Assembly (NCBI GenBank): GCA_964579335.1
Contig: CAZOFS010000001.1
Span: 11,196 to 75,195, forward strand
Direction of reading: 5' to 3'
Length of the DNA: 64,000 bases
From: an uncultured Bdellovibrionales bacterium
GTDB lineage: Bacteria; Patescibacteriota; Minisyncoccia; Moranbacterales; UBA1568
In this document: piece by piece, positions 12,198 to 32,674 of the stretch
How the letters are laid out: each line of letters opens with the position of its first letter
How positions within the stretch are numbered: position 1 is the first letter of the stretch
The notes under the pieces: model-generated
The model's database searches: none
Told to the model about the DNA's origin: nothing
What the model saw: the letters and a program-made list of their open reading frames with translations, nothing else
Translations under genes and position numbers: made by a program

Positions 12198-12204
12198 AAG
12201 AAGT

Positions 12205-13597: not shown

Positions 13598-13606
13598 TAA
13601 TAAGGT

Positions 13607-14137: not shown

Positions 14138-15268
14138 ATGGAATACATTATCCGAGATAAAAGTTTATTGACGGGAAAAAAGAACCTTGAAACGTTGCAT
14201 GTTTTCAAGGATTTTCCCGTCTTCATGGGCTGTACTGATCAAGCGGAGAGTAAAGACCTAAAAGCAGATATGAGCTTTGCTATCTGTCCTGAAACGGGGA
14301 TGATCCAGCTCGATAAGTTGCTTCCTTTAGAGCTGGTTTATCTAGCTCAGCATAATGATGGAGTGGGAAAAATATGGCAGGAACATTACCAGGCCTTTGC
14401 ATCATTTCTTAATCGTTTTTTCCCTAAGAAGGTTCTTGAAATCGGTGGTTCACATGATGAGATATTTAAATCGGCTTTTAAAACAAATAAGAGTCTTGAT
14501 TGGACAGTGGTTGAACCGCACCCTCTTTTTGAGGGATACGGCAATATCAGGGTCATTCCTCAGTGGTTTGATGAAAATTTTACTTCTGAAGAAGTATATG
14601 ACACAGTAGTTCATTCCCATGTACTAGAACATACGTATGATCCTCCTACTTTCCTATCTCATATTGGAAAATATTTAGAACCGGGGAAAAAACATATCTT
14701 TACTTTTCCAAATCTCATCGAGTTTCTGAAAAAAAAATATACTAATGGCTTAAATTTTGAGCACACTTGCCTCTTAGCCGAACCATTTGTAGATTACCTA
14801 CTAGCAAAAAATGGTTTTCGTGTTCTAGAAAAGGAATATTTTCATGATCATAGCATTTTTTATGCTACTGAAAGAGTAACACAACCTACCGCAGAGAATA
14901 CGCCTCCTTATTGTTATACGGAGTATAGATCTCTTTTCATGGATTTTATTAATTACCATGAAACACTTGTACAATCTCTTAATGAAAAGATTAAGAGTCA
15001 TTCTGGTGAGATATATTTATTTGGGGCACATATTTTTTCCCAATACTTGATTGCTTTTGGGCTAGATATAAGTCGTATTCGTATCGTACTTGATAATTCT
15101 GACCTTAAAAATAAGCAAAGACTCTACGGAACTCATCTATTAGTAGAAAAGCCGGAGCAAATTCGTAATGAAATAAATCCTGCTGTGATTGTTAAGATTG
15201 CTAATTATCGTGATGAAGTAGTGGAGCAACTGATGAAGATTAATCCTCGGGTTACCATTTTCGAATAA
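14138..15268 (+). CDS. Class I SAM-dependent methyltransferase of the NDP-sugar C-methyltransferase family (TylCIII-like; Zn-finger, MT and C-terminal domains)
   Basis: N-terminal putative Zn-binding domain FPVFMGC...FAICPETGMIQL (the C..CGLVQL signature), a central SAM fold (VLEIGGSHDE), and a C-terminal domain of about 120 aa typical of PF08484. Confidence 0.6.
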   Translation: MEYIIRDKSLLTGKKNLETLHVFKDFPVFMGCTDQAESKDLKADMSFAICPETGMIQLDKLLPLELVYLAQHNDGVGKIWQEHYQAFASFLNRFFPKKVLEIGGSHDEIFKSAFKTNKSLDWTVVEPHPLFEGYGNIRVIPQWFDENFTSEEVYDTVVHSHVLEHTYDPPTFLSHIGKYLEPGKKHIFTFPNLIEFLKKKYTNGLNFEHTCLLAEPFVDYLLAKNGFRVLEKEYFHDHSIFYATERVTQPTAENTPPYCYTEYRSLFMDFINYHETLVQSLNEKIKSHSGEIYLFGAHIFSQYLIAFGLDISRIRIVLDNSDLKNKQRLYGTHLLVEKPEQIRNEINPAVIVKIANYRDEVVEQLMKINPRVTIFE

Positions 15269-15270
15269 CT

Positions 15271-16545
15271 ATGAGACTTGTCTTAGTAAATCCTCATTAC
15301 TATATTTACGGAAAAACGGTAATAAATATTTTATTACGTCGGAAACACTTCATGAAATATGATTATTTCATTGATTATTATTTAAAAGATAAAAGTAAAC
15401 AAACAGCAATCTATATTGATGGGACTAAGACTTCCTTGGCAGCTATAAAAGTTCGATTTCTATTTTTTCCAAAGTTTTTTTCTTATTTAGAGCTTTTAGT
15501 ATGGATGATTAGTAATGGCCTTAATCCTTTTAAAGTAAAAGTTTATTTTGAGATCGGACAGCTAGATCCACAAAAAGATGTAATGATTGATTTTGTTCGT
15601 TCTCTGAAACTGTCGGAACTTAAGTATACTGGCTATACAAAATTTTCAGGACTAGTTTTATTTTTTTGCACCCATTACTTTCTTCGTATTAGGGAAGTAG
15701 TTGAGTATCTGAAGCAGGTTCCTCATTACCTTCTTATAGCAGAGCATAATCTTGCCCAAGAGGCTTTCTTTCATAATTTTTTCCCCAATGTAGCAGAAGT
15801 GTATCAGCTACCTTATGCCTTTGGTGAGCGTTTCAACCAAAAAAAGAATTTTGAAGAGCGCACAAATAAATGCTTAGCCCTTGGGTCTGTTGCACCTATT
15901 GAAAGGAATAATAAAGAGTTCTTTGATTTTTTCCATATCGAGGTTCTTCAGCCAATGCGTCAGTTGCTTCTCGACAAAGCGTCACAATATACACCGGAAA
16001 TTGATACGGTAATAAGACGTTTTGAAAATTCTTCTTTTCTCCAGACTGGTGTGCCTGATGAGAATTGGGTAAATCGTATGATACGACGTTGGGCACCTCC
16101 TTTTATTATGAAGATAGTTTTTTCTTATCCTCATAATAAATATTATCAATTTGACATAGTGCAAAAATATAATCAGTATCGAATGTTTATTTCTGGAGAG
16201 GAAATTGTTGGGTTACCCCCAATTAATGCTTTTGAAGGTATGGCTTGTGGGGCAGCGTATATTGGTATAGATCATCCGATGTATACTCGAATTGGTCTTA
16301 TCCCGGGGGTTAATTATGTTGGATACAAAGAAGGAGATTTAGATGATCTTATCAGTAAGGTACGTTATTACCAGACTCATCCAGTGGAGTTAAAAAAGAT
16401 CGCTGAGGCAGGAAAAGTATTCGTGAGAGATCATTTTAATAGAAAGAAGATTGCAGAGACCTTTTGGAAAGATATAGAAACAATCTCAAAAGAGTTCTCT
16501 GAATCACAATCTTTGAACATAGTTTGCTCTTTTCGCAAGCCTTAA
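15271..16545 (+). CDS. Glycosyltransferase-like protein with a C-terminal GT-B (GT1/GT4) domain
   Basis: C-terminal EGMACGAAYIGIDHPMYTRIG...VGY resembles the E-x7-E/EAMA-G-PVI donor-binding region of GT4 enzymes. The N-terminal half is unrecognised. Confidence 0.45.
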   Translation: MRLVLVNPHYYIYGKTVINILLRRKHFMKYDYFIDYYLKDKSKQTAIYIDGTKTSLAAIKVRFLFFPKFFSYLELLVWMISNGLNPFKVKVYFEIGQLDPQKDVMIDFVRSLKLSELKYTGYTKFSGLVLFFCTHYFLRIREVVEYLKQVPHYLLIAEHNLAQEAFFHNFFPNVAEVYQLPYAFGERFNQKKNFEERTNKCLALGSVAPIERNNKEFFDFFHIEVLQPMRQLLLDKASQYTPEIDTVIRRFENSSFLQTGVPDENWVNRMIRRWAPPFIMKIVFSYPHNKYYQFDIVQKYNQYRMFISGEEIVGLPPINAFEGMACGAAYIGIDHPMYTRIGLIPGVNYVGYKEGDLDDLISKVRYYQTHPVELKKIAEAGKVFVRDHFNRKKIAETFWKDIETISKEFSESQSLNIVCSFRKP

Positions 16546-17216
16546 TATTTTGCTGCAACGAGTATGATCTCATTGTAGAGTGCCGGGGGTAGAAATTTAA
16601 CAATGAAGCTAGTCTGTGGTAAGACGAGAATCTTTTTAGTTTCTTGTCGTTTAAGAGTTGCTTGCTCGAGCATAAAATCCATTAAGTGAAGTGTAAAAAA
16701 GGTATGATGTTTATAGTATCCAGATCGACGATACATATGTTCTTGATAGGAAATACCAAATATCATGCGGATTATATTATTTAATCCTACATCGCTAGGA
16801 ATACTTACTATAAGAACACCTCCCTTTTTTAGAACACGGTTAATTTCTTTAAGTAAACCTATGGGGTCAAAAACATGCTCTATTATATCTCCGGCCCATA
16901 CAACATCGAATCGCTCGTTATCTTCAGGAATACCCTCATCAAGATTGCATTGTTTTGCTTCAATGCCATTTTTGAGAGCTTTACTTACTGCCTCACAAGA
17001 AAAGTCCAAACCTTTTACAATGTACCCAAGCTCTTGAATTTTCTTTGTAACTAGTCCGCTCCCGCATCCAATATCGAGTATATGCACTTCTTGGGGCGGT
17101 TTGTTTAATGTCTGAGTGTATTTACTCAGCATTTCAAACATTGTTTTTTCTTCAAGTTCGATCCGGCAATGGTCGGAAATTTGGTAGCGTTTATCTTCTG
17201 CTTGATCTGGTCGCAT
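16542..17216 (-). CDS. Class I SAM-dependent methyltransferase (paralog of 19985-20659)
   Basis: Motif I ILDIGCGSGLVTKKI, motif post-I LDFS, and DVVWAGDIIEHV. About 60% aa identity to the 19985-20659 product. Confidence 0.75.
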   Translation of the reverse strand: MRPDQAEDKRYQISDHCRIELEEKTMFEMLSKYTQTLNKPPQEVHILDIGCGSGLVTKKIQELGYIVKGLDFSCEAVSKALKNGIEAKQCNLDEGIPEDNERFDVVWAGDIIEHVFDPIGLLKEINRVLKKGGVLIVSIPSDVGLNNIIRMIFGISYQEHMYRRSGYYKHHTFFTLHLMDFMLEQATLKRQETKKILVLPQTSFIVKFLPPALYNEIILVAAKY

Positions 17217-17349
17217 AGCATTTTTCTCTCTGGAAAGAGTTCAATATATGTGTAAATTACCTATATTATAGCAAAAAATACTCAAAATATCAGCTTTAAA
17301 AAAGATGAATTTGGCTGTATGTGCTTGTCAGAAAGGGACAAATATAAGC

Positions 17350-17358
17350 TGTTATAAT
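17350..17358 (+). promoter_or_regulatory. Extended -10 promoter element TGtTATAAT for the flippase gene
   Basis: Perfect TATAAT at 17353-17358 preceded by TG at 17350-17351, about 70 nt upstream of the ATG at 17430, in a 213-bp AT-rich divergent intergenic region. Confidence 0.4.
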
Positions 17359-17429
17359 AGATTAATAGATGTCCATAAAAACGCTTGCCCCCATCTCTCT
17401 AAGAAAGTGCACCAGGATAAGATCTGTTT

Positions 17430-18686
17430 ATGTTAGGAAAAAAGGTACGTTATTTAGATTGGTTAGGAAAAAAAATAGGCTTAGATTTGGCACGTCATTT
17501 TAATAATGGTCAGTGGATTTTTCTAAAATTTGGAGTGATAGCAGTAGGGGGGTGGTTAATATCACTTCTTTTTGCCAGACTTGGAACCAAAGAAGTTCTT
17601 GGTCAATACCAATACGTACTTTCATGTATTACAATCGTTTCTCTTTTATCCCTACCAGGTTTGAATACTGCAGCCCTTGAAGCTGTGGCGCATGGTCGAG
17701 AGGCGGGGGTTATTAAAGCAGTACGATGGAGCTTTTTTTTGAGTCTAATGGCATTGGTGGCACTGGTGGGATTGGGGTTTTATAGCATTTTTTTTCGAAA
17801 CCAATTTTTGGTGGGGGAAACGCTTATTTTAGCAGGGCTTCTAGCACCTTTTTATTATGCGTTTAATACCTGGAATATCTATTATGATGGGAAATCTCTT
17901 TTCAAAGAAAGCTCTCTTCGTACCGTACTTCTCTATATCTCTCTTCATCTTTCACTGGCTGTAGGTCTTTTATTAGAATTTAATGTATTAGGACTTGTGC
18001 TTACCTATCTTTTTGTTCATATTTTTCTTTTTGGCTATTTCTTTTTCGAGCTCTTAAAAAAAATAAAGGACCGAACAAACGATTATATTGATTTTAAATT
18101 TGGTGTTAATTCTTCGATTCAGCGTTTTGTTTTCGGTTTATCAAACAATGTCCCACCTCTCGCTATCTCTGCCTTGTTTGGTCTTGAGGCGGTTGCTATT
18201 TATTATATCGGTTATTTTATTGTCAATGCTGGCTCATCTCTTATGGGTATGCTCGGGTATCTCTATATTCCCGCCCTCTTCCGTGGGGTGAAAATTGCTT
18301 ACAAAAAAGTAATGCTGCAAAACCTGGTTGTAGGCATTATTTTTTGGGTCGCCTTTCTTATTTTTATCAAATTTCTTTTTATCCCTATGTATGGAGTGGG
18401 ATATTTAGAAAGTCAGAGATTAGCCTTCTTCTTCTCTATCTTGATGATTTTTGTACCACTTAAGATTTTTATGATGAATTTCTTTATGACCAGAAAGAAA
18501 AATTGGACAATCATTTCAATAATTGGTCTTGCTAATATAGTTTCGCTAGGAATTTTGTACTTACTAAAAAACCACGGTTTTTCGATTAGTATGGTAACTT
18601 ACATTTATGCCCTTGAGCTAATGACCATCTTACCTTTAGCGTATATATATCTTCAAGAAAATAGAAAATCTCTATACTCTAAATAA
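17430..18686 (+). CDS. Polysaccharide flippase (Wzx/MOP superfamily-like) membrane protein
   Basis: 418 aa with about 12 predicted TM helices and a size and topology typical of oligosaccharide-unit flippases. No soluble domain. Confidence 0.55.
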   Translation: MLGKKVRYLDWLGKKIGLDLARHFNNGQWIFLKFGVIAVGGWLISLLFARLGTKEVLGQYQYVLSCITIVSLLSLPGLNTAALEAVAHGREAGVIKAVRWSFFLSLMALVALVGLGFYSIFFRNQFLVGETLILAGLLAPFYYAFNTWNIYYDGKSLFKESSLRTVLLYISLHLSLAVGLLLEFNVLGLVLTYLFVHIFLFGYFFFELLKKIKDRTNDYIDFKFGVNSSIQRFVFGLSNNVPPLAISALFGLEAVAIYYIGYFIVNAGSSLMGMLGYLYIPALFRGVKIAYKKVMLQNLVVGIIFWVAFLIFIKFLFIPMYGVGYLESQRLAFFFSILMIFVPLKIFMMNFFMTRKKNWTIISIIGLANIVSLGILYLLKNHGFSISMVTYIYALELMTILPLAYIYLQENRKSLYSK

Positions 18687-18769
18687 GTTGAAAAGTAGCA
18701 TATAAAGCCATCTCCTTAGGTATTCTTTTCCAAGATTTTCTTGATTGCTAAGAGTGTTTGTAGTCAAAA

Positions 18770-19978
18770 TTATTCTCTTCCTTTCTTTAGACATCCAAGA
18801 AAAACCTTATCAATCTGTTCGGATATGTGACTTTGATTAAACTTTAAATTATATAGATTGAGTGCTTGTGTTGAAAATTTTTCTAGAAGAGTTTGATCTA
18901 GTAAAAAGCATTCAATTGAGTTATAAAGAAAATTTTCAATTGGCTTTAATTTTCCATTTTTTTGGAAATCGAAAAGATCTTTATAGAAATCTCGGGGATT
19001 ATAGTATTTCCCTAAAAGCTGATAGGTTTTTGGGTCATAATCCTGCAAGGGGTGATTATGAAAAACAAAGCCACTTCTATCTTCAACAACCATCTCAGTG
19101 GTGGCGTATTGATCAGTAATAATAAGAGGCATGCCGTGCGCGATCGCTTCGATTAGGACTAGGCCAAAACCATCCCGATAGGTAGGAAGACAGAAAACGT
19201 GATGATCTCGATAAAGTTGGCGCATTTCTTCAGCGCCGAGAACAGCATCGTGAAGATTGATGCCAGGTTGTGACAGGAGGCTGTCGGCATCTTCTTTTTT
19301 AAGAGCTACAATAGGAGTGATAATAGTAAGAGAAATGTTACTGTATTGCTTTCTTAAATTTAAGAAAGCGTTTACCAGTTCCCGGCCTCCTTTCATATAA
19401 AACTGTCCTACGAATAACAAGCGAAGTGTCCCAGACCATTTTTTTGGTAAGCATTTTTGGTTATCTACCAAGGGGACGGGATAGATTACTACCATTTTTT
19501 TAGTAAGAATATTTCTGACTATTTTTGGATAATATGCTGATGTAAAAAAACTCTTTTTTGATGCCTCGCTCAGGAAAATAAGTTTATGGCAATTCTTGCG
19601 GGTTGCTAGATACATAACAATGAGGCGGGCGAATGGATTTCTGGCTATTCCTAAATCATAATTGTAAGGTGATAAGCCAGTTTCGAGATAGACACAATAG
19701 GGTTTGTTGGTGATGAGAAGTGTTCCATACGTAAAAAGAATATCACCACTTGTTTCGTATCTAAAACGGACATTCGGTATTCCAATAATTCTTCGCAGCC
19801 AATGTTGCCAGGTGGTCTTTACTCGCACTATCTCTTTATCAAACGAGGGAAGTAATTTGTAGAGCATTCTCTTTGGTTTGAGATGAGCAACAAACACTCC
19901 ATGCTTGAGAATTTTTCCAAAATTAAGCACAAATTGCCGAAGATAAGGCTGGAAAAGAACAACTTGATATTTTTCCAT
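18770..19978 (-). CDS. Glycosyltransferase family 4 (GT-B)
   Basis: C-terminal donor-binding motif GFGLVLIEAIAHGMPLIITDQYATTEMVVEDRSGFVF (the E-x7-E region). Confidence 0.7.
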   Translation of the reverse strand: MEKYQVVLFQPYLRQFVLNFGKILKHGVFVAHLKPKRMLYKLLPSFDKEIVRVKTTWQHWLRRIIGIPNVRFRYETSGDILFTYGTLLITNKPYCVYLETGLSPYNYDLGIARNPFARLIVMYLATRKNCHKLIFLSEASKKSFFTSAYYPKIVRNILTKKMVVIYPVPLVDNQKCLPKKWSGTLRLLFVGQFYMKGGRELVNAFLNLRKQYSNISLTIITPIVALKKEDADSLLSQPGINLHDAVLGAEEMRQLYRDHHVFCLPTYRDGFGLVLIEAIAHGMPLIITDQYATTEMVVEDRSGFVFHNHPLQDYDPKTYQLLGKYYNPRDFYKDLFDFQKNGKLKPIENFLYNSIECFLLDQTLLEKFSTQALNLYNLKFNQSHISEQIDKVFLGCLKKGRE

Positions 19979-19984
19979 AAGGGG

Positions 19985-20659
19985 TTATTTCTTCCTTGCT
20001 TCAATAATCATTTCATTAAAAAAGGCTGATGGGAGAAAATTTGTTTCGTAGCGATTTTTACTCAGTATAAGAATCTTCTTGAAAGTATATATATGTAACC
20101 CAGCTTTTTGAAGCATGAATTTTATTAGGCGTGGAGTAAAGAAAGTATGATGTTTATAGAATCCAGAAGAATAGTACATTTGTTCTTGATAGGAAATCCC
20201 AAAGAGCATTTTAATTCGAGAAATTAATCCGACATCACTTGGAATAGTAATAAGCATGGCTCCGTCTATTTTGAGAACGCGCTGTGACTCTTTGAGTAGT
20301 CCAATGGGATCAAAAACATGCTCTACTATATCTCCAGCCCAAACAATATCGTATGCTTCTGAGCTTTCTGGAATACCTTCATCAAGATTAGTTTTTTTGG
20401 CGTTTACTCCTTGCGCTAGAGCCTTCTTGATAGCTTCCTCAGAAAAATCGAGGCCAACCACTTGATAGCCTTTTTTCATAAGTTCTTTTGAAATTCTTCC
20501 GCTGCCACAACCAATATCAAGGATCCTTAGATTGGAAGTGGGCACTTTTTTTTCTTGCGTATATCGATCAAGTAACTTGAACATCATCTGCTCTTCTTTG
20601 CTAATAGGGCAGTAATCTTCCGTGGCGTATCGTTGATCTTCTCTTTCTTCTGGTTTCAT
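19985..20659 (-). CDS. Class I SAM-dependent methyltransferase (paralog of 16542-17216)
   Basis: ILDIGCGSGRISKEL, GLDFS, DIVWAGDIVEHVFDPIGLLKE. Nucleotide-level similarity to 16542-17216 is evident; compare 20301-20420 with 16861-16980. Confidence 0.75.
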   Translation of the reverse strand: MKPEEREDQRYATEDYCPISKEEQMMFKLLDRYTQEKKVPTSNLRILDIGCGSGRISKELMKKGYQVVGLDFSEEAIKKALAQGVNAKKTNLDEGIPESSEAYDIVWAGDIVEHVFDPIGLLKESQRVLKIDGAMLITIPSDVGLISRIKMLFGISYQEQMYYSSGFYKHHTFFTPRLIKFMLQKAGLHIYTFKKILILSKNRYETNFLPSAFFNEMIIEARKK

Positions 20660-20710
20660 AGATTTTTCGTAAAAAATTACAAGTGACGCAGTCAGGAAAT
20701 AAATGAAGAA

Positions 20711-21505: not shown

Positions 21506-21508
21506 ATT

Positions 21509-22243: not shown

Positions 22244-22271
22244 GGCTACATTGGGCTTTTTTCTGGATCAG

Positions 22272-22296
22272 GTATACTATAAAAGTATACTATACC
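22272..22296. promoter_or_regulatory. Tandem GTATACTATA direct repeat in a divergent promoter region
   Basis: GTATACTATAaaaGTATACTATAcc. Each copy contains the palindrome GTATAC and a TATACT/TATAGT -10-like hexamer on either strand. It lies between a minus-strand methyltransferase operon and a plus-strand GT2 gene. Confidence 0.4.
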
Positions 22297-22383
22297 TTCT
22301 CTGAATCAAGGAGTATGAAAGGTTAATTGACAGGAGGGGTAGCTTATGTCTTTCTAAGAAAAAGAACGTACGTTTTACAGTCT

Positions 22384-25200: not shown

Positions 25201-25202
25201 TG

Positions 25203-26294: not shown

Positions 26295-26358
26295 AGAGGG
26301 TTTACAGTATTTATCCGTTAATTATAGACGATTTAGTACTTTCTTCAAGCAGGGAAAA

Positions 26359-27039
26359 TTAGGGCTTTTGGCAAATAATCGTGTAGTGAGGATACACCAA
26401 CATGCGCTTTTTAGTGAGGGAAGATGTTATAAAACCTATCTTCTTAAGTTCCTGCTCTGCTGTTTCGGCTACCATCTCATTGCCTATTTCTCCCGCGCAT
26501 ACAAAGTCATGAAGTTTGTTGAAACTTGTGAGAATGGGTTGTCCGGCATCAATGTCTTTTAGGACAAGTTTTGTACCAGGAGCCATTTTGTTGTAGATCT
26601 CCTGGAGAAAGGTAACCTGATCTTGTTTAGGGACGTGATGGAGTACATCAATGAGGAAGATATAGTTATACAAGCTGACTGTTTCAGGAATATCTTTCCC
26701 ATTGAAAGTGGTGAGGGTAGTAGAGATAGAGGTATTTTCTTGAAGCACTCTCTTGGCATTACTAATCAACGTGTCTGAAATTTCAATTCCTCCGAGGAGA
26801 TGGGGGTATTTGAATTTTGAGACTAAAGAAAGAAACATGCCATTACCACAACCGATATCGAAAACAGCAGCTTTCTCTGGGAGAATGTCGAGAAGATCAC
26901 CAAGAGGGCAGATATAAGGACGGTAAGCAATCTTAAGTTTATCAAGCAATTTTGCATCCTTTGGATCTCTTGATTGAAGGAACTGGGAAAGTTCACGGTT
27001 AGAAAATTTTTTCATAGTATTTGGTGAGGCCTGAAACAT
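26359..27039 (-). CDS. Class I SAM-dependent methyltransferase
   Basis: AAVFDIGCGNGMFLSLVSK, GGIEIS, and IFLIDVLHHVPKQD...GTKLVLKD. The annotated start overlaps the upstream gene by 41 nt; an alternative start is MKKF at 27015. Confidence 0.7.
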   Translation of the reverse strand: MFQASPNTMKKFSNRELSQFLQSRDPKDAKLLDKLKIAYRPYICPLGDLLDILPEKAAVFDIGCGNGMFLSLVSKFKYPHLLGGIEISDTLISNAKRVLQENTSISTTLTTFNGKDIPETVSLYNYIFLIDVLHHVPKQDQVTFLQEIYNKMAPGTKLVLKDIDAGQPILTSFNKLHDFVCAGEIGNEMVAETAEQELKKIGFITSSLTKKRMLVYPHYTIICQKP

Positions 27040-29209
27040 TTTTTTGAAACCAAGGACGGAGGAAGCTTAAGGTAGCTAGCTGATAGAGAAGAAGTTGGAT
27101 GTTTATTCCCAAGAGCAGGGTAATAAAGAAATCATAAATGGCAAGCATAGCTATGCCATTATGTTGTCCAAAAAATGAATTTTCAATAATAAGTGGAAGA
27201 AAAGAGAAGATAAACATAAAAAAAGGAAGGGAAAATTTCCAGGAACGTCTTTGAATAATAAAGAAAAGATTAATGAAAGAAAGGATGGTTACGGTAAACC
27301 ATAGCAGGGATCGAATAAAGGAAGTGTTAATAATATGACGATAGATGTTATTTGAAAGGAGTGATATAAGATCGAAGTAATTACCCTGGAAAGATTTTGT
27401 GATCCCGGTAAGGAACTTTATTGCGGAATGTTCGTGGTAGGTAATACTTTGACCCAAAGCAGTTTTAATTTCAGGGAGGAGGTTCACAAATCCGCTGGTG
27501 GGCATAATAATAAACGTCCCGGCTACGGTGAAATTGCGAAAACCAATAAAAATAGGAAAGAGTATGAACCCTATTACAAAAAAGAGGATGGTATATCTCC
27601 TTATAAATGCAAAGGGTGGTTCAAAAAACTTTACTCCTAAGAAGATGAAAACTCCTAAAAGGAGAGGGATCCAATCGGTTCGCATCATGCAGATAACTCC
27701 CCATAGAAGCCCTAGGAGAAAATAGTGAACCCAGGATGGGGTATTATTTTTGAGAAGGAAAAACATGTGCGCAAATGCGAGTACAACAAGAGGAAAAGCA
27801 ATAGCTTGTTGATATGGAGTGTGAAACAAAGCAAAAGGAGAAGTGGTAGGAAAAACCATGAGGAAAAAATAGCTCGCACCAAAGGTGAGTGCAACAGCTT
27901 TACCAAATTGTATGGCGAGAACAAAGACAAGAAAAAGAAAGGCTAAAGAAAATAGAAGGGTTTGGGCTACATATGGTCCCCACATTGGTTCGTCGAATAC
28001 CTTGTGAAAGGCAGCAAGAAAGAATCGGTGAAGTGGCTGATAGTAGTACGGCCCGTTCTTTTCGGTAGCTCGCAACATATCTTGGAAATTAGTGACTGAA
28101 AAAGTAGAGCGAGCAAATGACTCGTGGCCAAGCTCATCGCTGCCACCTTTAAAGAAAATGGTCTCTTTGGGTTGGGCATGTGCAGTAGCTAGGATAGATG
28201 CATTGCAAAAGAGTATGAGGAGGAGAAATGCAAGGATATTTCGTTTTGAATTCATTAGGTGAAGTATCCAGTAAAAAGAAGTGATGATAAAGATGCATGA
28301 GAAAAGAGAAAGTGAGAGCTTGAAGCTGAGGAAGTCTTGCTGGACGAGCCAAAAAAATCCAATAAGACTAAAGATAGTACTTAAAAGGAAATATTTCTCC
28401 TTCTTTTCTAATGCTTTTGTTTTCAGCAATAAACCCCAGAGAAAACAACCTAGTAAGAAAGTGAGCAGAAAAACGTTAATGAACTTGTAAATCTCTGTAA
28501 AGAGAATAACTACTGTCCCGGTTGGGAGAGTGTATAAGGGTGTTCCTGACACAGCAATTCGTAGGACACTTTTCTTTTTAATGGTGGCTTCATATTTTAT
28601 AGAGATCTGATTAAATTCATTGGGAACAAGATTGAAGGCCTCCCGCTTTTTCCCAGTTGTTTCAAGAGTTTTTCCGTTGATTGAAACCAATACTTTTTTG
28701 TCAGCGTGAACAATAATTTGATCGCCTGGCTTCGAGTAGAGAAAGGTGCTTGCCTCAAGGATATAGGGAAGAGTATCTCGTTTGGGTTGGTTCTCTTCGT
28801 AAAAGTTGAATGAAATATTATTAAAAAAATACAAAGGCATGTTCTTGCTATCAAAATCAACTTTTTCGTAAGTGTAGCCATTAATACCAGCTGGATCTTC
28901 AGCTGTAGGCTCGCAGCGAGACTGAAGTTTATTGATACCCACATCGCTCTTTATACATACTGACCACCCGTAGGGGAGGAAGTAATAAGATGTTATCTGT
29001 ATAACAAGGAGGAGAGTGAGAGAGGTTATTATTATTTTTTTGAGCCGAGGGGAGGTTTCCCAAGTGGTGGCTAAAATGAGCCAAAAACCAATGAAAGATC
29101 CAACCATCTCTTCGGCCGAAAGAGGTAATCCATCGAAAAACCCGGCTTTACTCCCCGGGAGGATACATATCAGAGTAAAAAGAATTGTGGCAAGGATTTT
29201 GAATCGCAT
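26999..29209 (-). CDS. Large membrane protein: N-terminal signal/anchor, about 230-aa extracytoplasmic domain, then about 12 TM helices (putative GT-C glycosyltransferase or polymerase)
   Basis: 736 aa. Signal-like N-terminus MRFKILATILFTLICILPGSKA. Long hydrophobic C-terminal two-thirds with short loops. Confidence 0.45.
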   Translation of the reverse strand: MRFKILATILFTLICILPGSKAGFFDGLPLSAEEMVGSFIGFWLILATTWETSPRLKKIIITSLTLLLVIQITSYYFLPYGWSVCIKSDVGINKLQSRCEPTAEDPAGINGYTYEKVDFDSKNMPLYFFNNISFNFYEENQPKRDTLPYILEASTFLYSKPGDQIIVHADKKVLVSINGKTLETTGKKREAFNLVPNEFNQISIKYEATIKKKSVLRIAVSGTPLYTLPTGTVVILFTEIYKFINVFLLTFLLGCFLWGLLLKTKALEKKEKYFLLSTIFSLIGFFWLVQQDFLSFKLSLSLFSCIFIITSFYWILHLMNSKRNILAFLLLILFCNASILATAHAQPKETIFFKGGSDELGHESFARSTFSVTNFQDMLRATEKNGPYYYQPLHRFFLAAFHKVFDEPMWGPYVAQTLLFSLAFLFLVFVLAIQFGKAVALTFGASYFFLMVFPTTSPFALFHTPYQQAIAFPLVVLAFAHMFFLLKNNTPSWVHYFLLGLLWGVICMMRTDWIPLLLGVFIFLGVKFFEPPFAFIRRYTILFFVIGFILFPIFIGFRNFTVAGTFIIMPTSGFVNLLPEIKTALGQSITYHEHSAIKFLTGITKSFQGNYFDLISLLSNNIYRHIINTSFIRSLLWFTVTILSFINLFFIIQRRSWKFSLPFFMFIFSFLPLIIENSFFGQHNGIAMLAIYDFFITLLLGINIQLLLYQLATLSFLRPWFQKNVSGLTKYYEKIF

Positions 29210-29213
29210 AGGC

Positions 29214-29870
29214 TTAGCCTATCTTATTTTGAAATTTCTTATATTTGGTAAGGAGATGGTAAATCAAAGAAGAAGATTTTTCTTGAAAATTTTTTCTGTC
29301 GAGGCTTTGGAGAAAGTTAGTGGCTGAAGTAAAATCAATATCACTCATGAGTGTTTTTCCATATTCACCAGCAAAGTGGGCATCGCTGGCGCATATAGGT
29401 GTTTTCCCATAGCGCTCAATGAACTGAGAAGCTTTTCGGTTATCAGACTGGAAGATATTGCGTGCATTAAAAACCTCAATAGCATCGATGAGATGGAGGT
29501 TTTTTTTCAGCTCAGCTGTTGTAAGTACGTGTTTCCGGAGCCGGTCAAAAGGATGGGGGACTATGGTAATGCCGCCTTGGCGCTTGATGGCCTCAAGGGT
29601 GGCTTGGGGAGTGAGTCCGGCTGGTATTTTTTCCTGAATAAATAAGCCGATAACTTCTCCAGCGGAAGTATTAATTTCTTCACCAACAATTACCGTCAGC
29701 CCAGAAGGGGCCATACTCCTGAGTCGGAGGGCGCCAGCTATTTCGTTGTGGTCAGTGATGGCAATGCCTGAAACTTGCTGAGTAATGCAACGCTGTATAA
29801 CATTCTCCAAACTTGCTCCTGCATCTTTGGAATACGGAGCAGTGTGGCAGTGGAATTCAAAATATGACAT
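29214..29870 (-). CDS. PHP-domain metal-dependent phosphoesterase
   Basis: PHP motifs FHCHT (HxH), ITDHN, IVPHPF and ASDAHF. 6 nt downstream of the UbiA-family gene. Confidence 0.7.
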   Translation of the reverse strand: MSYFEFHCHTAPYSKDAGASLENVIQRCITQQVSGIAITDHNEIAGALRLRSMAPSGLTVIVGEEINTSAGEVIGLFIQEKIPAGLTPQATLEAIKRQGGITIVPHPFDRLRKHVLTTAELKKNLHLIDAIEVFNARNIFQSDNRKASQFIERYGKTPICASDAHFAGEYGKTLMSDIDFTSATNFLQSLDRKNFQEKSSSLIYHLLTKYKKFQNKIG

Positions 29871-29876
29871 AGGTGT

Positions 29877-30755
29877 TTATAAATGAAAATGTATAATAGA
29901 AAAAAAGACCATTCCCCAAAGTGCAATATTGACAATCATAGGTCGATCGCTTGAGAAAATTTTGGTAGGATCATCACCTTTTGATTGGACATAAATAATT
30001 TGAAAATAGCGAAAGATGCCAAATACAACAAACGGTACAGTATAGAGTAGATGATGAGTTCCAAAGCGTTCCATGGTGTGATTGTCAATGGTATAAAGCG
30101 CATAGGTAATGATAGTGATTGCTGCTGTAGTACCAAGCAATTGGTTTAGAAATTCTGGATGGTATGAAGAAAGTACATTTCTTATCTGAGATGAATTTTC
30201 CTTAAGGATACCGATCTCACCTTTGCGTTTTCCAAAAGCGATGAAGAGAGCCCCAAAGAAAGTACAAAGGAGTATCCAGGGAGAAACGGAGACGGTAATA
30301 GCTGCAGCACCAGCTAAGATTCTTAGAACAAAACCGATAGCTACTACCATGACATCAAGAATAGGAATTCTCTTTAGATGCCATGAGTAAAGAATATTGA
30401 GAAGGAAATAGCCAGTAGTAATAGCGAAAACAGTAGGGGGTAATAATACAAGGATGATAGTAGTACCAGTAAGGAAAAGAGAGAGAAAGAAAACTAACCC
30501 TTGTTTTACACTGATAACCCTTGAGGCTATGGGGCGATATCGCTTGTGAAGATGTTTTCTATCAGATTCAACATCGGCAATATCATTGAATATATAAATT
30601 GCACTTGCTATTAATGAGAAGGCTGTAAAGGTGATAGTGACCTGTAAAATGTTATTTTGACTAAATTGAAGTGAGAAAACTAGGGGTGCAAAAATAAGTA
30701 CATTCTTAATGAGATGACTAATTCGCATGAGATGAAAATAAGCTTCCCATTTCAT
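29877..30755 (-). CDS. UbiA-superfamily polyprenyl-phosphate phosphoribosyltransferase-like protein (decaprenyl-phosphate 5-phosphoribosyltransferase family)
   Basis: NDIADVESDRKHLHKRYRPIASRVIS closely matches the DPPR-synthase signature NDVRDVEADRKHPTKRFRPIAAG. About 8 TM helices. Confidence 0.75.
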   Translation of the reverse strand: MKWEAYFHLMRISHLIKNVLIFAPLVFSLQFSQNNILQVTITFTAFSLIASAIYIFNDIADVESDRKHLHKRYRPIASRVISVKQGLVFFLSLFLTGTTIILVLLPPTVFAITTGYFLLNILYSWHLKRIPILDVMVVAIGFVLRILAGAAAITVSVSPWILLCTFFGALFIAFGKRKGEIGILKENSSQIRNVLSSYHPEFLNQLLGTTAAITIITYALYTIDNHTMERFGTHHLLYTVPFVVFGIFRYFQIIYVQSKGDDPTKIFSSDRPMIVNIALWGMVFFSIIHFHL

Positions 30756-31156
30756 AATATTTTTGGCTGGGTATCTGGTTTATAAAAAACCCAGTATTTA
30801 CTAGAAAAATAAGTAAAAAGAATAGCAAAAATAAGCGCGATGGTTTTCGAGATGTTGTAGTGAATTCCAAAGTTTATTGTGGCGAGATGAATAATAAATT
30901 CGGTAATGCCCAGAGCTATAAAGGTAACAAAAAGGTAATGGGAAATTTTTGAAAACTCTCGACCAGAAGTATTGTAACGAAAAGTCCATCTGCTATGAAG
31001 GATATAGCCTACTATCACACTTGTCGTAAATCCTAAAAGAACAGACCAGAAAAGGGTAAAATGAAGACCTAAATAGAGAATATTTAAAACAAAATAATCT
31101 ACTGAAATACTGAAAATTCCGACCAGGCTATAGCGTACCAATTGATACTCTATCAT
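30752..31156 (-). CDS. GtrA-family small membrane protein (lipid-linked sugar translocation accessory)
   Basis: 134 aa, 4 TM helices. VRYSLVGIFSISVDYFVLNILY...HSRWTFRY matches the GtrA-like family. 4-nt overlap with the UbiA-family gene. Confidence 0.7.
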   Translation of the reverse strand: MIEYQLVRYSLVGIFSISVDYFVLNILYLGLHFTLFWSVLLGFTTSVIVGYILHSRWTFRYNTSGREFSKISHYLFVTFIALGITEFIIHLATINFGIHYNISKTIALIFAILFTYFSSKYWVFYKPDTQPKIL

Positions 31157-31171
31157 ACGGGAGAAATTCGA

Positions 31172-32674
31172 TTATTGAGAGGTAACCGAAGCTATAACGT
31201 ATAATTCTCCAAATTTTATGGAGGAACTTTCGATTTTCAACCCTGCTTTTTCAAGTTCGGAGCGGAAATTTTCTTCAGTGTATTCTATAAAGTGAGTATC
31301 ATCGAGTTTGTAGCTAAAACCCTGATTCTTTTTGTAAACACTAAGCCAGTCACGAGTTATCATAGGAACTCGAATAAGAAATTTTGGAGCTAATCTCTTG
31401 ATGTTTTTTAAGAATTCTTTTCGTTTTTTTATGTGTTCTAGAACATTTGAAAGGACAATTATATCGAAAGTTTCCGTAAATTGATAATTCGTGGCATCAC
31501 CCTCAATAAATCGCATGTTATCAAGGCAGTATTCTTTTTTTGCAAGAACAATGTTTTTATTTATGATATCAATCCCGGTTACTTTTCGAGCTTTTTGGGC
31601 AATATGGTGGGCAACAAATCCGCTTCCATATCCGATATCAAGAACGGAATCACTTGGATGAACGTTTTCTACAAAAAATTTATGGTAGTCTGATATTTTA
31701 TGCTTTGGATGAATTCCACCATTATCTTTTATGGCAAGGAAACTAATAACCTTGTAAGAAAAATTATTGAGCCAGCAGAAAAAATGCATTACACCCCGAT
31801 TGATTGTTTTTAAAGGAAACTTTTCCCATAGAGTTTTATTTTTTTTCTTTTCTGATGATCCAACTTTTTTGAATACAAGCAAGATGGAGTGACTACTGAA
31901 AGGAGCTACGAGAAAAGAAATTCCATAGTTGAGAATTTTCACTAATAGGTTTTGACTGTCGTAAATTTTTTGTAACCAAGGTTTGAGAATAGAGGCTTCA
32001 TCTTTAAGTCCTTTCATTCCGGCATAGTGAGTTTTGCACACCAATCTAAATCCGTCATTAGTAAGTTCTTTGATGAGTTGATTGTGATCTAGAGCAAATT
32101 GGTAGAATTTGTCTTTCTGATCAATATGAGGATTAAAGAGGGGGTAACAGCCAAGCTTTATCTTCAACCTTCGTAAGAGTGAAAGATGAGGAAAGGTAAG
32201 AAAAAGATAACCCCCATCCTTCAGTACGCGTTTCATCTCATGGAGGATGGGCTGATAACCATCAAAAAAATGCTCAATAACTCCAATTGACCAATACCCA
32301 TCAAAATAAGCATCCGGGAATTCGAGGCTTCTTACATCTCCAGCACGAACATCAAGATAGGGAAAGGAAGCCTTTATTTTGTCGATGGTTTTTGGAGCAT
32401 AATCTACACCGTATGCATCGTAGCCGAGTTCATGAAAGGCATAAACAAACTGTCCATTACCACAGCCCCCCTCGATGATCTTTTTTGTTTTTTCTGGGGG
32501 GATAAATTTTTGGGTAGTTTTGGTTATCAGCCGATTATTAAGGCCATTCTTAACTACCTCTTCAAAATTGGTTACATCCCATTGGTTATCCCAATAGCTT
32601 GGAGAAGCTTCTTGTTCTATGAATACGATTCTATTTCCTTGGGGATCAAAATATTTTTTCATACAGTTCAGCAA
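31172..32674 (-). CDS. Tandem double SAM-dependent methyltransferase (two class I MT domains in one polypeptide)
   Basis: Domain 1 IIEGGCGNGQFVYAFHELGYDAYGVDYAPK is a paralog of 20711-21505. Domain 2 is VLDIGYGSGFVAHHIAQKARKVTGIDI...IIVLSNVLEHI. Confidence 0.7.
   Translation of the reverse strand: MLNCMKKYFDPQGNRIVFIEQEASPSYWDNQWDVTNFEEVVKNGLNNRLITKTTQKFIPPEKTKKIIEGGCGNGQFVYAFHELGYDAYGVDYAPKTIDKIKASFPYLDVRAGDVRSLEFPDAYFDGYWSIGVIEHFFDGYQPILHEMKRVLKDGGYLFLTFPHLSLLRRLKIKLGCYPLFNPHIDQKDKFYQFALDHNQLIKELTNDGFRLVCKTHYAGMKGLKDEASILKPWLQKIYDSQNLLVKILNYGISFLVAPFSSHSILLVFKKVGSSEKKKNKTLWEKFPLKTINRGVMHFFCWLNNFSYKVISFLAIKDNGGIHPKHKISDYHKFFVENVHPSDSVLDIGYGSGFVAHHIAQKARKVTGIDIINKNIVLAKKEYCLDNMRFIEGDATNYQFTETFDIIVLSNVLEHIKKRKEFLKNIKRLAPKFLIRVPMITRDWLSVYKKNQGFSYKLDDTHFIEYTEENFRSELEKAGLKIESSSIKFGELYVIASVTSQ

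What the first reader, a model, noticed from the sequence alone, without database searches (positions are those of the whole stretch)
14138..32674. Nine SAM-methyltransferase domains in one glycan locus, including recently duplicated paralogs
Methyltransferase genes lie at 14138, 16542, 19985, 20711, 21509, 25203, 26359 and 31172, the last carrying two domains. The pair 16542-17216 and 19985-20659 share about 60% aa identity and visibly conserved nucleotide stretches. The gene 20711-21505 matches the N-terminal domain of the double-MT gene 31172-32674 (GGCGxGQFVY...DGYWSxGVIEHF...GGYLFLTFP). One gene adds a Trm112-like N-terminal domain. This density points to a heavily and variably O- or C-methylated surface glycan. 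For comparison, methyl groups are used as chain-terminating caps in ABC-transporter-dependent O-antigens, and methylated polysaccharides occur in mycobacteria. The duplications suggest ongoing diversification of the methylation pattern.
Basis: seen in the sequence. Interest (0 to 1): 0.65.

Follow-up and report, generated by a model that had tools for sequence, protein, structure and literature searches.

The report
Methyltransferase-rich glycan island of a Moranbacterium
A tiny-genome CPR bacterium (Candidatus Moraniibacteriota) carries a strain-variable surface-sugar gene island with eight methyltransferase genes (nine domains), but the look-alike copies are ancient paralogs shuffled as gene modules, not recent duplicates.

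Summary
Eight genes at the stated coordinates carry nine class I SAM-methyltransferase (MT) domains among glycosyltransferases, a Wzx-like flippase and a polyprenyl-phosphate-pentose cassette. MT2/MT3 are 56% identical. MT4 matches the N-domain of the double-MT gene at 48%. The Trm112-like N-terminus of 25203-26294 is real at family level, though it has lost its cysteines.

"Recently duplicated" is not supported. Synonymous sites are saturated. Each copy has closer relatives in other genomes (MT3 up to 96%, MT2 up to 74%) than its partner here. MT4 and MT8 sit side by side in two other genomes.

The window comes from a Candidatus Moraniibacteriota (CPR) MAG. Related loci carry 4-5 MT genes per ~20 kb. 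The closest one lacks MT1, MT2 and a precise 4.9-kb cassette (GtrA-UbiA-PHP-GT-C-MT7). So variation arises by gain, loss or replacement of GT+MT modules.

MT density here is about 80 times that of 66 comparison loci from other phyla. No MT reaches a curated cut-off of any small-molecule or rRNA MT family. Methylation of the glycan is inferred from context only. Verdict: a new, unusually MT-rich member of a known kind of tailoring-enzyme glycan locus, of moderate interest.

The parts
14138..15268 (+). MT1: class I MT core plus the C-terminal domain of NDP-sugar C-methyltransferases (TylC3/TcaB9-like). Absent from the closest sister locus.
   Evidence: Pfam Methyltransf_23 at 41.6 bits and Methyltransf_14 at 26.1 bits (cut-off 23.5). 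PDB 4rv9 D-mycarose 3-C-MT at E=5.9e-4. 90.7% nt identity with the sister contig stops at 14137.
15271..16545 (+). Glyco_trans_1_2 / GT90-like glycosyltransferase
   Evidence: Pfam. 45-46% identical homologs in L015 and L016.
16542..17216 (-). MT2: 224-aa class I MT of a family whose named members are all CPR. Absent from sister loci L015/L098 and L016.
   Evidence: An independent Logan contig, L001, is 99.9% identical.
17430..18686 (+). Wzx-like flippase (Polysacc_synt, 10 hydrophobic segments)
   Evidence: Only 71% aa / 70% nt identical to the sister, against ~90% nt in the flanking blocks.
18770..19978 (-). GT4 glycosyltransferase
   Evidence: 93% identical in L015.
19985..20659 (-). MT3: ancient paralog of MT2 (56% aa). 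Its orthologs elsewhere are 96%, 81% and 80% identical.
20711..21505 (-). MT4: 264-aa class I MT. Part of the conserved MT5-MT4-(MT2/3-type) block.
   Evidence: AlphaFold2 model with pLDDT 96.4 shows a class I MT fold.
21509..22243 (-). MT5: 244-aa class I MT with a C-terminal hydrophobic segment
   Evidence: Orthologs are 91%, 74% and 53% identical in L015, L016 and L007.
22327..24103 (.). Two GT2 glycosyltransferases (22327-23319 on +, 23303-24103 on -)
   Evidence: 98% and 94% identical in L015.
24100..25224 (-). GT4 glycosyltransferase, always next to MT6
   Evidence: The MT6-GT4 adjacency is seen in the window, L015, L016 and L018.
25203..26294 (-). MT6: Cys-less Trm112-like N-domain, linker and class I MT. 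The MT gene found in the most related loci: four of the five compared (window, L015, L016, L018), not L007.
26359..27039 (-). MT7: class I MT whose start overlaps the end of the GT-C gene. Part of the 4.9-kb cassette.
   Evidence: called product is 218 aa. It is fused in frame to the GT-C in L018.
26999..29209 (-). 736-aa polytopic GT-C-like glycosyltransferase
   Evidence: PMT_2 at 23.5 bits, below the 26.1 cut-off. ~15 hydrophobic segments. 37% identical homolog in L018.
29214..29870 (-). PHP-family phosphoesterase, the putative 5-phosphate phosphatase of the pathway
   Evidence: Co-located with UbiA in 5 loci (the four identified, L018-L021, are CPR or an unclassified MAG).
29877..30755 (-). 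UbiA-family polyprenyl-phosphate 5-phosphoribosyltransferase (DPPR-synthase type)
   Evidence: NCBIfam NF008977 at 276 bits, above the 234 cut-off
30752..31156 (-). GtrA-family small membrane protein, a putative flippase for polyprenyl-P-sugar
   Evidence: Pfam GtrA_DPMS_TM at 70 bits
31172..32674 (-). MT8: fusion of an MT4-family N-domain with a second, unrelated class I MT domain. The second domain is a stand-alone 214-aa gene in L007.
   Evidence: The fusion is seen only in the 4 closest protein clusters (70-92% id), plus one 494-aa two-MT protein aligned over only 41% of the query.
32687..36881 (-). Two GT4 genes (32687-33682, 33679-34839) and a 685-aa polytopic membrane protein with no Pfam match. 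Syntenic with MT8 in L015 and L016; in L007 homologs of all three are present (the GT4s are not adjacent there) and a stand-alone MT8C-like gene lies next to the 685-aa homolog.
26316..31193 (.). Presence/absence cassette GtrA-UbiA-PHP-GT-C-MT7. In the closest sister contig 111 bp take its place.
   Evidence: blastn breakpoints. No tblastn hits for the five genes in L015 or L016. The cassette is present in L018.
14138..18782 (.). Replaced, divergent segment (MT1, GT90-like, MT2, Wzx). The sister carries GT90-like, a 329-aa gene, Wzx and GT90-like here instead.
9778..14137 (+). Upstream operon for an unassigned activated sugar or polyol: SDH-like, NTP_transf_3, GatZ/KbaZ-like, cupin, HAD. MT1 follows it directly.
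   Evidence: 90.7% nt identity in the sister.
1332..2747 (+). Bac_transf phosphoglycosyl transferase, the likely initiating enzyme of the island
   Evidence: Pfam at 202 bits. 88% identical in L007.

Best explanation
The region is the core of a strain-variable surface-glycan biosynthesis island of more than 55 kb. It belongs to a Candidatus Moraniibacteriota bacterium (CPR/Patescibacteria).

Proposed assembly (inferred). A polyprenyl-phosphate-linked oligosaccharide is started by a Bac_transf phosphoglycosyl transferase. Cytoplasmic GT2/GT4 enzymes build it up, and Wzx-type flippases export it. GT-C enzymes decorate it further outside the membrane, using polyprenyl-P-sugars. One such donor is a polyprenyl-P-pentofuranose made by the UbiA/PHP/GtrA cassette.

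Role of the MTs (inferred from context). The eight MT genes come from at least seven sequence families and act as SAM-dependent tailoring enzymes. MT1 probably acts on a nucleotide sugar and may form a C-methyl branch. The others probably O-methylate sugars of the lipid-linked intermediate on the cytoplasmic face.

Shown here. MTs travel with particular glycosyltransferases as modules: MT5-MT4-MT2/3-type, MT6+GT4, MT8+two GT4+685-aa membrane protein, and GT-C+MT7. These modules are present, absent or replaced among related genomes, so the predicted methylation pattern differs between strains. The two paralog pairs are ancient family members, not recent duplicates.
For: Domain content and order. 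All nine motif I sequences are intact. No MT passes any specific non-glycan NCBIfam cut-off.

Conserved MT+GT synteny appears in four other loci: L007, L015/L098, L016 and L018. The 4.9-kb cassette indel and the 4.6-kb replaced segment have sharp breakpoints.

MT density is 8 genes per 18.5 kb here, against 4 per 868 kb in 66 comparison loci.

Taxonomy: named homologs of MT2 are all Moranbacteria/Moraniibacteriota or Andersenbacteria. The 90%-identity RtcB cluster holds a Candidatus Moraniibacteriota protein. The window proteins sit on one 81,730-bp NCBI contig.

Independent Logan assemblies reproduce 29236-37129, 38593-43856 and 16447-18186 at 99.9-100% identity.

Old paralogy.

Fusions point to joint action. 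MT8 is a double MT. Other members of the MT4 family are fused to an FkbM-type MT or to a sugar epimerase. In L018 the GT-C is fused to MT7.
Against: No chemistry exists: no glycan from any Moranbacterium has been analysed, and substrate specificity cannot be read from these generic class I MTs. PDB and Foldseek matches are generic. Sugar O-MTs such as RebM and AtmM appear among many others.

MT1's link to C-methyltransferases is weak (26.1 bits; E=6e-4), and it lacks the N-terminal zinc domain.

No Wzy polymerase, ligase or acceptor was identified, so the final product is unknown. It could be a wall polysaccharide, a lipoglycan, or an S-layer or pilin glycan.

The L018 GT-C::MT7 fusion could be a one-base assembly error, and no other such fusion occurs in the top 120 MT7 homologs.

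The comparison loci were chosen around UbiA genes and are not a random sample of glycan loci.
Confidence: 0.7

Rival explanations
1. One reading: the MT2/MT3 and MT4/MT8N pairs arose by recent tandem duplication inside this locus, and such duplication is what currently diversifies the methylation pattern.
For: The pairs lie within 3.4 kb and 10 kb of each other. They share 56% and 48% aa identity, and MT2/MT3 share a 252-nt stretch at 72% identity. In 6 of 20 bootstrap replicates the MT4 and MT8N clades fall in a small common clade of 11-27 members.
Against: dS is saturated and third-position identity is 41% and 38%. MT3 has 96%, 81% and 80% orthologs and MT2 has 74% and 68% orthologs in other genomes, yet the two are only 56% alike. 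Their common ancestor spans 101 of 118 family members. MT4 and MT8 coexist in L015 and L016, at about 70% ortholog identity in L016. The closest sister lacks MT2 inside a replaced segment, which points to recombination or acquisition.
Confidence: 0.05
2. Several of the MTs do not modify the glycan. They methylate other substrates such as membrane lipids, polyprenyl carriers, proteins or small metabolites, and sit in the island by chance or through co-regulation.
For: All are generic class I MTs whose best named matches are UbiG, BioC, phosphoethanolamine N-MT and similar. The MT7 family is huge (852 hits), and only 1 of 80 UbiA-centred loci holds an MT7 homolog.
Against: None reaches a curated family cut-off. 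MT+GT adjacency is kept across genomes whose proteins are only 50-70% identical. The enrichment is about 80-fold over the comparison loci. Genes overlap or are tightly spaced with GT genes on the same strand.
Confidence: 0.15
3. One or more MTs act as chain-terminating cappers, like WbdD in E. coli O8/O9a. The methyl group would then control chain length rather than decorate the repeat unit.
For: Terminal methylation is the usual pattern in bacterial S-layer glycans (statement in PMC5088730). The number of MTs exceeds what one repeat unit obviously needs.
Against: The scanned ORFs show no ABC transporter (Wzm/Wzt), no kinase domain and no coiled-coil WbdD-like architecture. Wzx-type flippases are present instead. 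Nine domains cannot all be terminators.
Confidence: 0.1

Closest known systems
Wzx-type (flippase-dependent) O-antigen/capsule/cell-wall polysaccharide gene clusters with tailoring enzymes
   Same: Both have an initiating Bac_transf PGT, sugar-nucleotide genes, many GT2/GT4 genes, Polysacc_synt flippases, lower G+C than the flanks (35-41% against 46-50%) and strain-level replacement of blocks.
   Different: This locus has 8 MT genes (9 domains) rather than the usual 0-2. No recognisable Wzy, Wzz or ligase is present. It has five GT-C genes. The host is a CPR bacterium with a genome of about 1 Mb and an unknown envelope glycan.
Mycobacterial glycopeptidolipid O-methyltransferases and polymethylated polysaccharides (MGLP/MMP; PMC9883506)
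   Same: Several SAM-MTs cluster with GTs to give multiply O-methylated sugars.
   Different: MMP and MGLP are cytoplasmic, with no flippase or GT-C. The MT families differ, and none of the window MTs passed a curated mycobacterial model (for example NF045823 and NF045825 scored far below cut-off).
Decaprenyl-phosphoribose/arabinose pathway of Corynebacterineae (UbiA Rv3806c, phosphatase, DprE1/E2, GT-C arabinofuranosyltransferases)
   Same: A UbiA-type phosphoribosyltransferase scores above the equivalog cut-off. A phosphatase, a GtrA-like protein and a polytopic GT-C sit in one operon.
   Different: The phosphatase is PHP-type, not PAP2. No DprE1/DprE2 epimerase lies in the window, so the donor is more likely polyprenyl-P-ribofuranose. 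An MT gene (MT7) overlaps the GT-C gene and is fused to it in L018.
NDP-hexose C-3-methyltransferases TylC3/TcaB9 (PDB 4rv9 family)
   Same: MT1 has an SAM domain plus the Methyltransf_14 C-terminal domain, and an EIGG/SxxD-type motif I.
   Different: The match is very weak (E=6e-4). The N-terminal zinc-ribbon domain is not detected and the cysteines are absent. No 4,6-dehydratase gene is adjacent.
Methylated protein-linked glycans: Haloferax AglP; Kuenenia stuttgartiensis S-layer O-glycan (PMC5088730)
   Same: A SAM-MT acts on a lipid-linked glycan before transfer (AglP, cited within PMC5088730; the mechanism is from my own knowledge). Extensive methylation of a surface glycan occurs in an uncultured-type bacterium.
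   Different: No acceptor protein or oligosaccharyltransferase is identified here. No chemical data exist.
Trm112-methyltransferase holoenzymes (PDB 6f5z, 6zxw)
   Same: MT6's family carries an N-terminal Trm112-type zinc ribbon joined to a class I MT.
   Different: The domain is fused in cis rather than being a separate activator subunit. The window copy lacks the zinc cysteines. The genomic context is glycan genes, not translation factors or tRNA.

Membership tests
Class I SAM-dependent methyltransferases | Rossmann-like MT domain detected by family models | tested here: met
   Pfam Methyltransf_11/12/23/25/31 hits above gathering score for all 8 genes, with two stretches in 31172-32674. The AF2 model of MT4 (pLDDT 96.4) matches class I MTs.
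Class I SAM-dependent methyltransferases | Intact glycine-rich SAM-binding motif I | tested here: met
   Read directly from the translations: DIGCGSG (MT2, MT3, MT6), EGGCGKG and EGGCGNG (MT4, MT8N), DIGCGNK (MT5), DIGCGNG (MT7), DIGYGSG (MT8C), EIGGSHD (MT1).
Specific small-molecule/rRNA/tRNA MT families (UbiG, BioC, MetW, CmoB, PrmA, Erm, KsgA ...) | Score at or above NCBIfam curated cut-off | tested here: not met
   The best hits all fall far below cut-off, for example UbiG at 65 bits against 103 and CmoB at 40 against 209.
NDP-sugar C-methyltransferase (TylC3/TcaB9) - MT1 only | C-terminal Methyltransf_14 domain | tested here: met
   26.1 bits against a 23.5 cut-off, residues 269-369. PDB 4rv9 at E=5.9e-4.
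NDP-sugar C-methyltransferase (TylC3/TcaB9) - MT1 only | N-terminal four-Cys zinc domain (Methyltransf_13) | tested here: not met
   No Pfam hit at E<=0.01. No CxxC pairs in residues 1-60.
Trm112-like domain fused to MT - MT6 | N-terminal Trm112p/UPF0434 fold signature | tested here: met
   23 of 32 family members hit PF03966. The family profile hits 6zxw_H at 1e-14 and 6f5z_C at 2e-10. The window protein alone gives only E=9e-6 and 7e-4.
Trm112-like domain fused to MT - MT6 | Zinc-binding CPxC...CxxC cysteines | tested here: not met
   The family consensus has them. The window protein and its three orthologs have D-P-L/x and T/S in their place.
WbdD-type methyl chain terminator / ABC-transporter-dependent O-antigen | Wzm/Wzt ABC transporter and a kinase/coiled-coil terminator | tested here: not met
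   No ABC_tran, ABC2_membrane or Pkinase hit among the window ORFs scanned.
Polyprenyl-P-ribose/arabinose (DPR/DPA) pathway | UbiA-type polyprenyl-phosphate phosphoribosyltransferase | tested here: met
   NF008977 at 276 bits, above the 234 cut-off.
Polyprenyl-P-ribose/arabinose (DPR/DPA) pathway | DprE1/DprE2 2'-epimerase giving arabinose | tested here: not met
   No FAD-oxidase or short-chain reductase gene lies in or beside the cassette, and none is in the 64-kb window. The rest of the genome was not available.
Polyprenyl-P-ribose/arabinose (DPR/DPA) pathway | GT-C transferase using the lipid-linked pentose | tested here: inconclusive
   A 736-aa polytopic protein. PMT_2 scores 23.5 bits, below the 26.1 cut-off. 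About 15 hydrophobic segments. Activity is not testable here.
Wzx/Wzy-dependent polysaccharide locus | PGT initiator and Wzx flippase | tested here: met
   Bac_transf at 202 bits. Polysacc_synt at 28.6 bits (cut-off 28.2) for 17430-18686 and 96.5 bits for 59418-60902.
Wzx/Wzy-dependent polysaccharide locus | Wzy polymerase / chain-length regulator / ligase | tested here: inconclusive
   No Wzy_C, O-antigen-polymerase or Wzz hit. The two polytopic proteins without a family (34824-36881, 36969-38639) are candidates.
Methylated surface glycan (the functional claim) | Methyl groups present on the mature glycan | not testable with these tools
   This needs chemical analysis. No published glycan structure for Moranbacteria was found.

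The most novel reading that the evidence does not exclude
Moranbacteria, which are ultra-small and probably episymbiotic CPR cells, spend about 5% of a ~1.2-Mb genome on a glycan island whose product is a heavily methylated and therefore unusually hydrophobic surface glycan that differs between strains. That glycan would include a methylated pentofuranose, made on a polyprenyl-phosphate carrier by a UbiA/PHP pathway, methylated by an MT physically coupled to the GT-C that installs it, and added outside the membrane. The methylation pattern would serve as the strain's identity tag for host attachment or phage evasion.
Probability: 0.15. Interest if true: 0.6.

Novelty: new member of a known kind. 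Interest (0 to 1): 0.35.

Why it matters
Nothing is known chemically about the cell-surface glycans of CPR bacteria, although an elaborate surface is a recurring theme in their genomes (PMC8080830, PMC5220378). This window alone holds about 20 glycosyltransferase-type genes. That equals the whole-genome count that was considered notable for another Parcubacterium (PMC5220378). It also holds nine MT domains. If the prediction holds, methylation would be a major axis of surface variation in these organisms, exchanged as GT+MT modules. The locus gives concrete, testable enzyme sets for glyco-engineering: the MT5-MT4-MT3 block, MT6+GT4, the double MT8, and GT-C+MT7. It also corrects a tempting but wrong reading: similar neighbouring genes are not evidence of recent duplication.

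Tried and rejected
- NCBIfam scan for specific MT families found nothing above cut-off.
- phmmer against the PDB for MT1, MT4, MT6 and MT7 returned only generic class I MTs. The exceptions were a weak TylC3 hit for MT1 and weak Trm112 hits for MT6.
- Single-sequence AlphaFold2 of MT6 failed (pLDDT 33) and was not used. Alignments containing locus-derived sequences could not be submitted.
- Foldseek of the good MT4 model against the PDB gave a generic MT fold with no substrate clue. That model also places MT4's C-terminal 'hydrophobic segment' inside the globular fold, so I dropped the idea that MT4 is membrane-anchored. MT5 remains possible.
- The first NJ bootstrap script timed out. The faster version left the deep MT4/MT8N relationship unresolved.
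- No tRNA genes and no flanking direct or inverted repeats mark the cassette or the replaced segment, so no mobile-element mechanism can be named. Rfam found only RNase P RNA and no SAM riboswitch.
- I tested whether MT7 is generally linked to the UbiA pathway. Only 1 of 80 UbiA loci (L018) has an MT7 homolog, and no GT-C fusions appear among the top 120 MT7 homologs. The 'MT7 methylates the lipid-linked pentose' idea therefore stays speculative.
- Literature searches for CPR or Patescibacteria glycan methylation or S-layer glycosylation found nothing specific.
- My greedy ORF picker missed three real genes (38564-39595, 46791-48101, 54783-56561) and listed antisense artefacts. This was corrected.

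Full report
**1. What is in the sequence**

ORF listing and Pfam scans show that 14138-32674 holds 18 tightly packed genes. Eight of them carry class I SAM-methyltransferase domains:
- MT1, 14138-15268 (+)
- MT2, 16542-17216 (-)
- MT3, 19985-20659 (-)
- MT4, 20711-21505 (-)
- MT5, 21509-22243 (-)
- MT6, 25203-26294 (-)
- MT7, 26359-27039 (-)
- MT8, 31172-32674 (-), which has two separate MT stretches

A glycine-rich motif I is intact in all nine (sequences).

Between the MT genes lie a GT90-like transferase, a Wzx-like flippase, three GT4 and two GT2 genes. There is also an operon GtrA / UbiA / PHP phosphoesterase / 736-aa polytopic GT-C-like protein. The UbiA protein scores above the equivalog cut-off for decaprenyl-phosphate phosphoribosyltransferase (276 bits against 234).

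**2. The wider window**

Almost all of the 64 kb is glycan biosynthesis:
- a Bac_transf initiating transferase (1332-2747)
- a CapD/PglF-type dehydratase
- five GT-C/PMT_2 genes
- two Wzx-like flippases
- about a dozen GT2/GT4 genes
- an AsnB-type amidotransferase
- UDP-glucose dehydrogenase
- a GT2+DUF2304 pair
- an LPG_synthase_TM protein

PheT and RNase P RNA bound it on the left, and RtcB on the right. G+C drops from 46-50% in the flanks to 35-41% in the MT-rich core.

**3. Whose genome**

The exact proteins sit on one 81,730-bp NCBI contig. The RtcB 90%-identity cluster contains a protein named Candidatus Moraniibacteriota. All named homologs of MT2 are from Moranbacteria/Moraniibacteriota or Andersenbacteria. 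The nearest UbiA relative, at 66%, is in a Moraniibacteriota MAG. The organism is therefore a CPR/Patescibacteria bacterium.

One Moraniibacteriota contig is 1.22 Mb long. If that approximates a genome, this island is about 5% of it. That figure is an inference.

Independent Logan assemblies reproduce 16447-18186, 29236-37129 and 38593-43856 at 99.9-100% identity. The gene order is therefore not an artefact of one assembly.

**4. The paralog claims**

The identities are as stated. MT2 and MT3 are 56% identical over 223 aa. MT4 and the N-domain of MT8 are 48% identical over 264 aa. All other pairs are at most 36% identical over local stretches. A 252-nt stretch of MT2 and MT3 is 72% identical.

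They are not recent duplicates, for these reasons:
- Overall nucleotide identity is 60% and 57%. Third-position identity is 41% and 38%. NG86 dS cannot be computed because synonymous sites are saturated.
- MT3 has orthologs at 96%, 81% and 80% identity and MT2 at 74%, 68% and 68% in other metagenomic genomes, yet the two are only 56% alike. In an NJ tree their common ancestor spans 101 of 118 family members.
- MT4 orthologs (window, L015, L016, L007) and MT8N orthologs (window, two Logan clusters, L015, L016) form two separate clades. Both genes coexist in L015 and L016. The deep relation between the two clades is unresolved.
- MT8's C-domain is a stand-alone 214-aa gene in L007, at 55% identity. 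The fused form occurs only in the 4 closest protein clusters (70-92% identity); a fifth two-MT protein of 494 aa aligns over only 41% of the query.

**5. The Trm112-like domain**

For MT6 alone the evidence is weak. The MT6 family is large: 193 representatives at E<=1e-30. Its consensus N-terminus reads CPxC...CxxC...YPIxxGIPR. 23 of 32 members hit Pfam Trm112p. The family profile hits solved Trm112 chains at 1e-14 and 2e-10. The window protein and its three orthologs have lost the cysteines.

The claim is therefore confirmed, with that qualification.

**6. Sister-genome comparison**

*L015/L098, the closest relative* (Logan SRR22388190_2050293). Its shared blocks are about 90% nt identical. 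It carries MT3, MT4, MT5, MT6 and MT8 only. The 4.9-kb cassette GtrA-UbiA-PHP-GT-C-MT7 (window 26316-31193) is replaced by 111 bp, so MT8 abuts MT6. The segment 14138-18782 (MT1, GT90-like, MT2, Wzx) is replaced by GT90-like, a 329-aa gene, a 71%-identical Wzx and a second GT90-like gene. The 90.7% identity stops exactly at the MT1 start.

*L016* (NCBI GCA_964428075.1). It has MT4, MT5, MT6, MT8 and a TylF-type MT, but no MT3.

*L007* (ENA ERZ28614686). It has single copies of the MT2-type, MT4-type, MT5-type and MT8C-type genes, plus a private 261-aa MT.

*L018* (Moraniibacteriota MAG). It has AsnB-UbiA-PHP-[GT-C fused in frame to an MT7-like domain, 980 aa]-MT6-GT4.

*L010, a conspecific strain.* It is about 100% identical to the right of roughly 44.6 kb. 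To the left it is 82% identical and has an extra gene.

MT content therefore varies, but it does so through gain, loss or replacement of GT+MT modules. No tRNA genes or flanking repeats explain the breakpoints.

**7. Is the density unusual?**

HMMs built from three of the MT families find exactly the eight genes in the window, including MT1 and MT7, which were not used for training. They find none elsewhere in the 64 kb. Sister loci hold 4-5 per ~20 kb. The 66 UbiA-centred loci from other phyla hold only 4 in 868 kb.

That is roughly an 80-fold enrichment. The caveat is that those loci are not a random sample of glycan loci.

**8. What the MTs do**

No MT reaches any curated cut-off for a small-molecule, rRNA or tRNA MT family.

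MT1 combines an MT core with the Methyltransf_14 domain typical of NDP-hexose C-methyltransferases, and it weakly matches TylC3. It lacks the zinc domain.

A high-confidence model of MT4 (pLDDT 96.4) is a standard class I MT. Its structural neighbours include the sugar O-MTs RebM and AtmM among many others.

Function therefore rests on context: conserved adjacency to particular GTs, overlapping or closely spaced same-strand genes, and domain fusions. Those fusions are MT-MT, MT-FkbM and MT-epimerase in the MT4 family, and GT-C-MT7 in L018.

The most likely mechanism is SAM-dependent O-methylation of sugars on the polyprenyl-linked intermediate at the cytoplasmic face. This resembles AglP in Haloferax, which is my own knowledge and is cited in PMC5088730. 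MT1 would act at the nucleotide-sugar level. This step is inferred, not shown.

The UbiA/PHP/GtrA/GT-C cassette is predicted to supply and transfer a polyprenyl-P-pentofuranose. Ribose is the likelier sugar, because no DprE1/E2 lies in the window. Whether MT7 methylates that donor is speculation.

**9. Comparison with known systems and verdict**

The locus works like a flippase-dependent heteropolysaccharide or glycoconjugate cluster with tailoring enzymes.

It is not a WbdD/ABC-transporter capping system, because it has no transporter and no kinase. It is not like the cytoplasmic mycobacterial polymethylated polysaccharides (PMC9883506). Extensive methylation of a surface glycan has a precedent in the Kuenenia S-layer glycan (PMC5088730).

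Hypervariable surface-glycan genes are a known feature of environmental bacteria and are usually read as phage evasion (PMC9426551). An elaborate surface is a recognised CPR theme (PMC8080830, PMC5220378).

I found no report of glycan methylation in CPR bacteria.

The finding is a real and unusually MT-rich example of a known kind of locus. The 'recent duplication' reading is wrong. Interest is moderate.

Noticed in passing
window 873-1291 (+): Bacterial RNase P RNA class A (108.9 bits, full-length model), between pheT and the glycan island. It is the only Rfam hit in the window, and there are no tRNAs.
   Followed up: no
window 9778-14137 (+): A five-gene operon: shikimate-DH-like, a 528-aa MobA-like nucleotidyltransferase with a weak APH-like C-part, GatZ/KbaZ-like, cupin and HAD phosphatase. 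It looks like a pathway for an unidentified activated sugar or polyol. It is 90.7% nt conserved in the sister contig, where MT1 is missing.
   Followed up: partly
window 34824-36881 (-) and 36969-38639 (-): Two polytopic membrane proteins (685 and 556 aa; one search lists 18 and 11 partly overlapping hydrophobic segments) with no Pfam match even at E<=1. They are conserved next to the GT4 pair and MT8 in sister loci. A distant 713-aa homolog is inserted elsewhere in a conspecific strain (L010 1984-4125). They are candidate Wzy-like polymerases or an undescribed transferase family.
   Followed up: partly
window 3906-5393, 26999-29209, 50509-52413, 52425-54788, 54783-56561: Five GT-C/PMT_2-type membrane glycosyltransferases in 64 kb, plus a GT2+DUF2304 pair (43507-44588) typical of polyprenyl-P-hexose synthesis. 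This suggests much extracytoplasmic glycosylation, and possibly protein O-glycosylation.
   Followed up: no
L018 4063-7005 (Moraniibacteriota MAG JBPOHW010000003.1): A single 980-aa ORF joins the GT-C homolog to an MT7-like domain (MT domain at residues 801-957). In the window the two genes overlap by 17-41 nt in different frames. It is either a real Rosetta-stone fusion or a one-base assembly error.
   Followed up: partly
window ~41500-44600 vs L010/L011: A conspecific strain (ENA ERZ27275550 k141_11031; identical RtcB, GT-C and LPG_synthase proteins) switches from ~100% to ~82% nt identity left of ~44.6 kb and carries an extra 2.2-kb gene. This marks the right edge of the hypervariable island.
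   Followed up: partly
window 2792-3139 (+): A 115-aa Phage_holin_4_2-family four-TM protein lies directly after the Bac_transf gene. It is 89% conserved in L007 at the same position, so it is probably a small membrane partner of the glycan machinery rather than a phage holin.
   Followed up: no
window 56356-58860 (+): A large beta-helix (NosD / Pel9A-like) protein sits between GT-C genes and the second flippase. It could be a secreted glycan-modifying or glycan-degrading enzyme, or a surface protein.
   Followed up: no
one search hits P0190/P0201 (749 aa) and P0193 (536 aa): Other members of the MT4/MT8N family are fused to an FkbM-type methyltransferase (PF05050) or to an NDP-sugar epimerase. 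The family also occurs in Asgard archaea (Lokiarchaeota/Promethearchaeota names).
   Followed up: no
whole window: GC skew is positive in every 2-kb bin regardless of gene orientation, and the cumulative skew rises monotonically. The + strand is probably the leading strand throughout.
   Followed up: no
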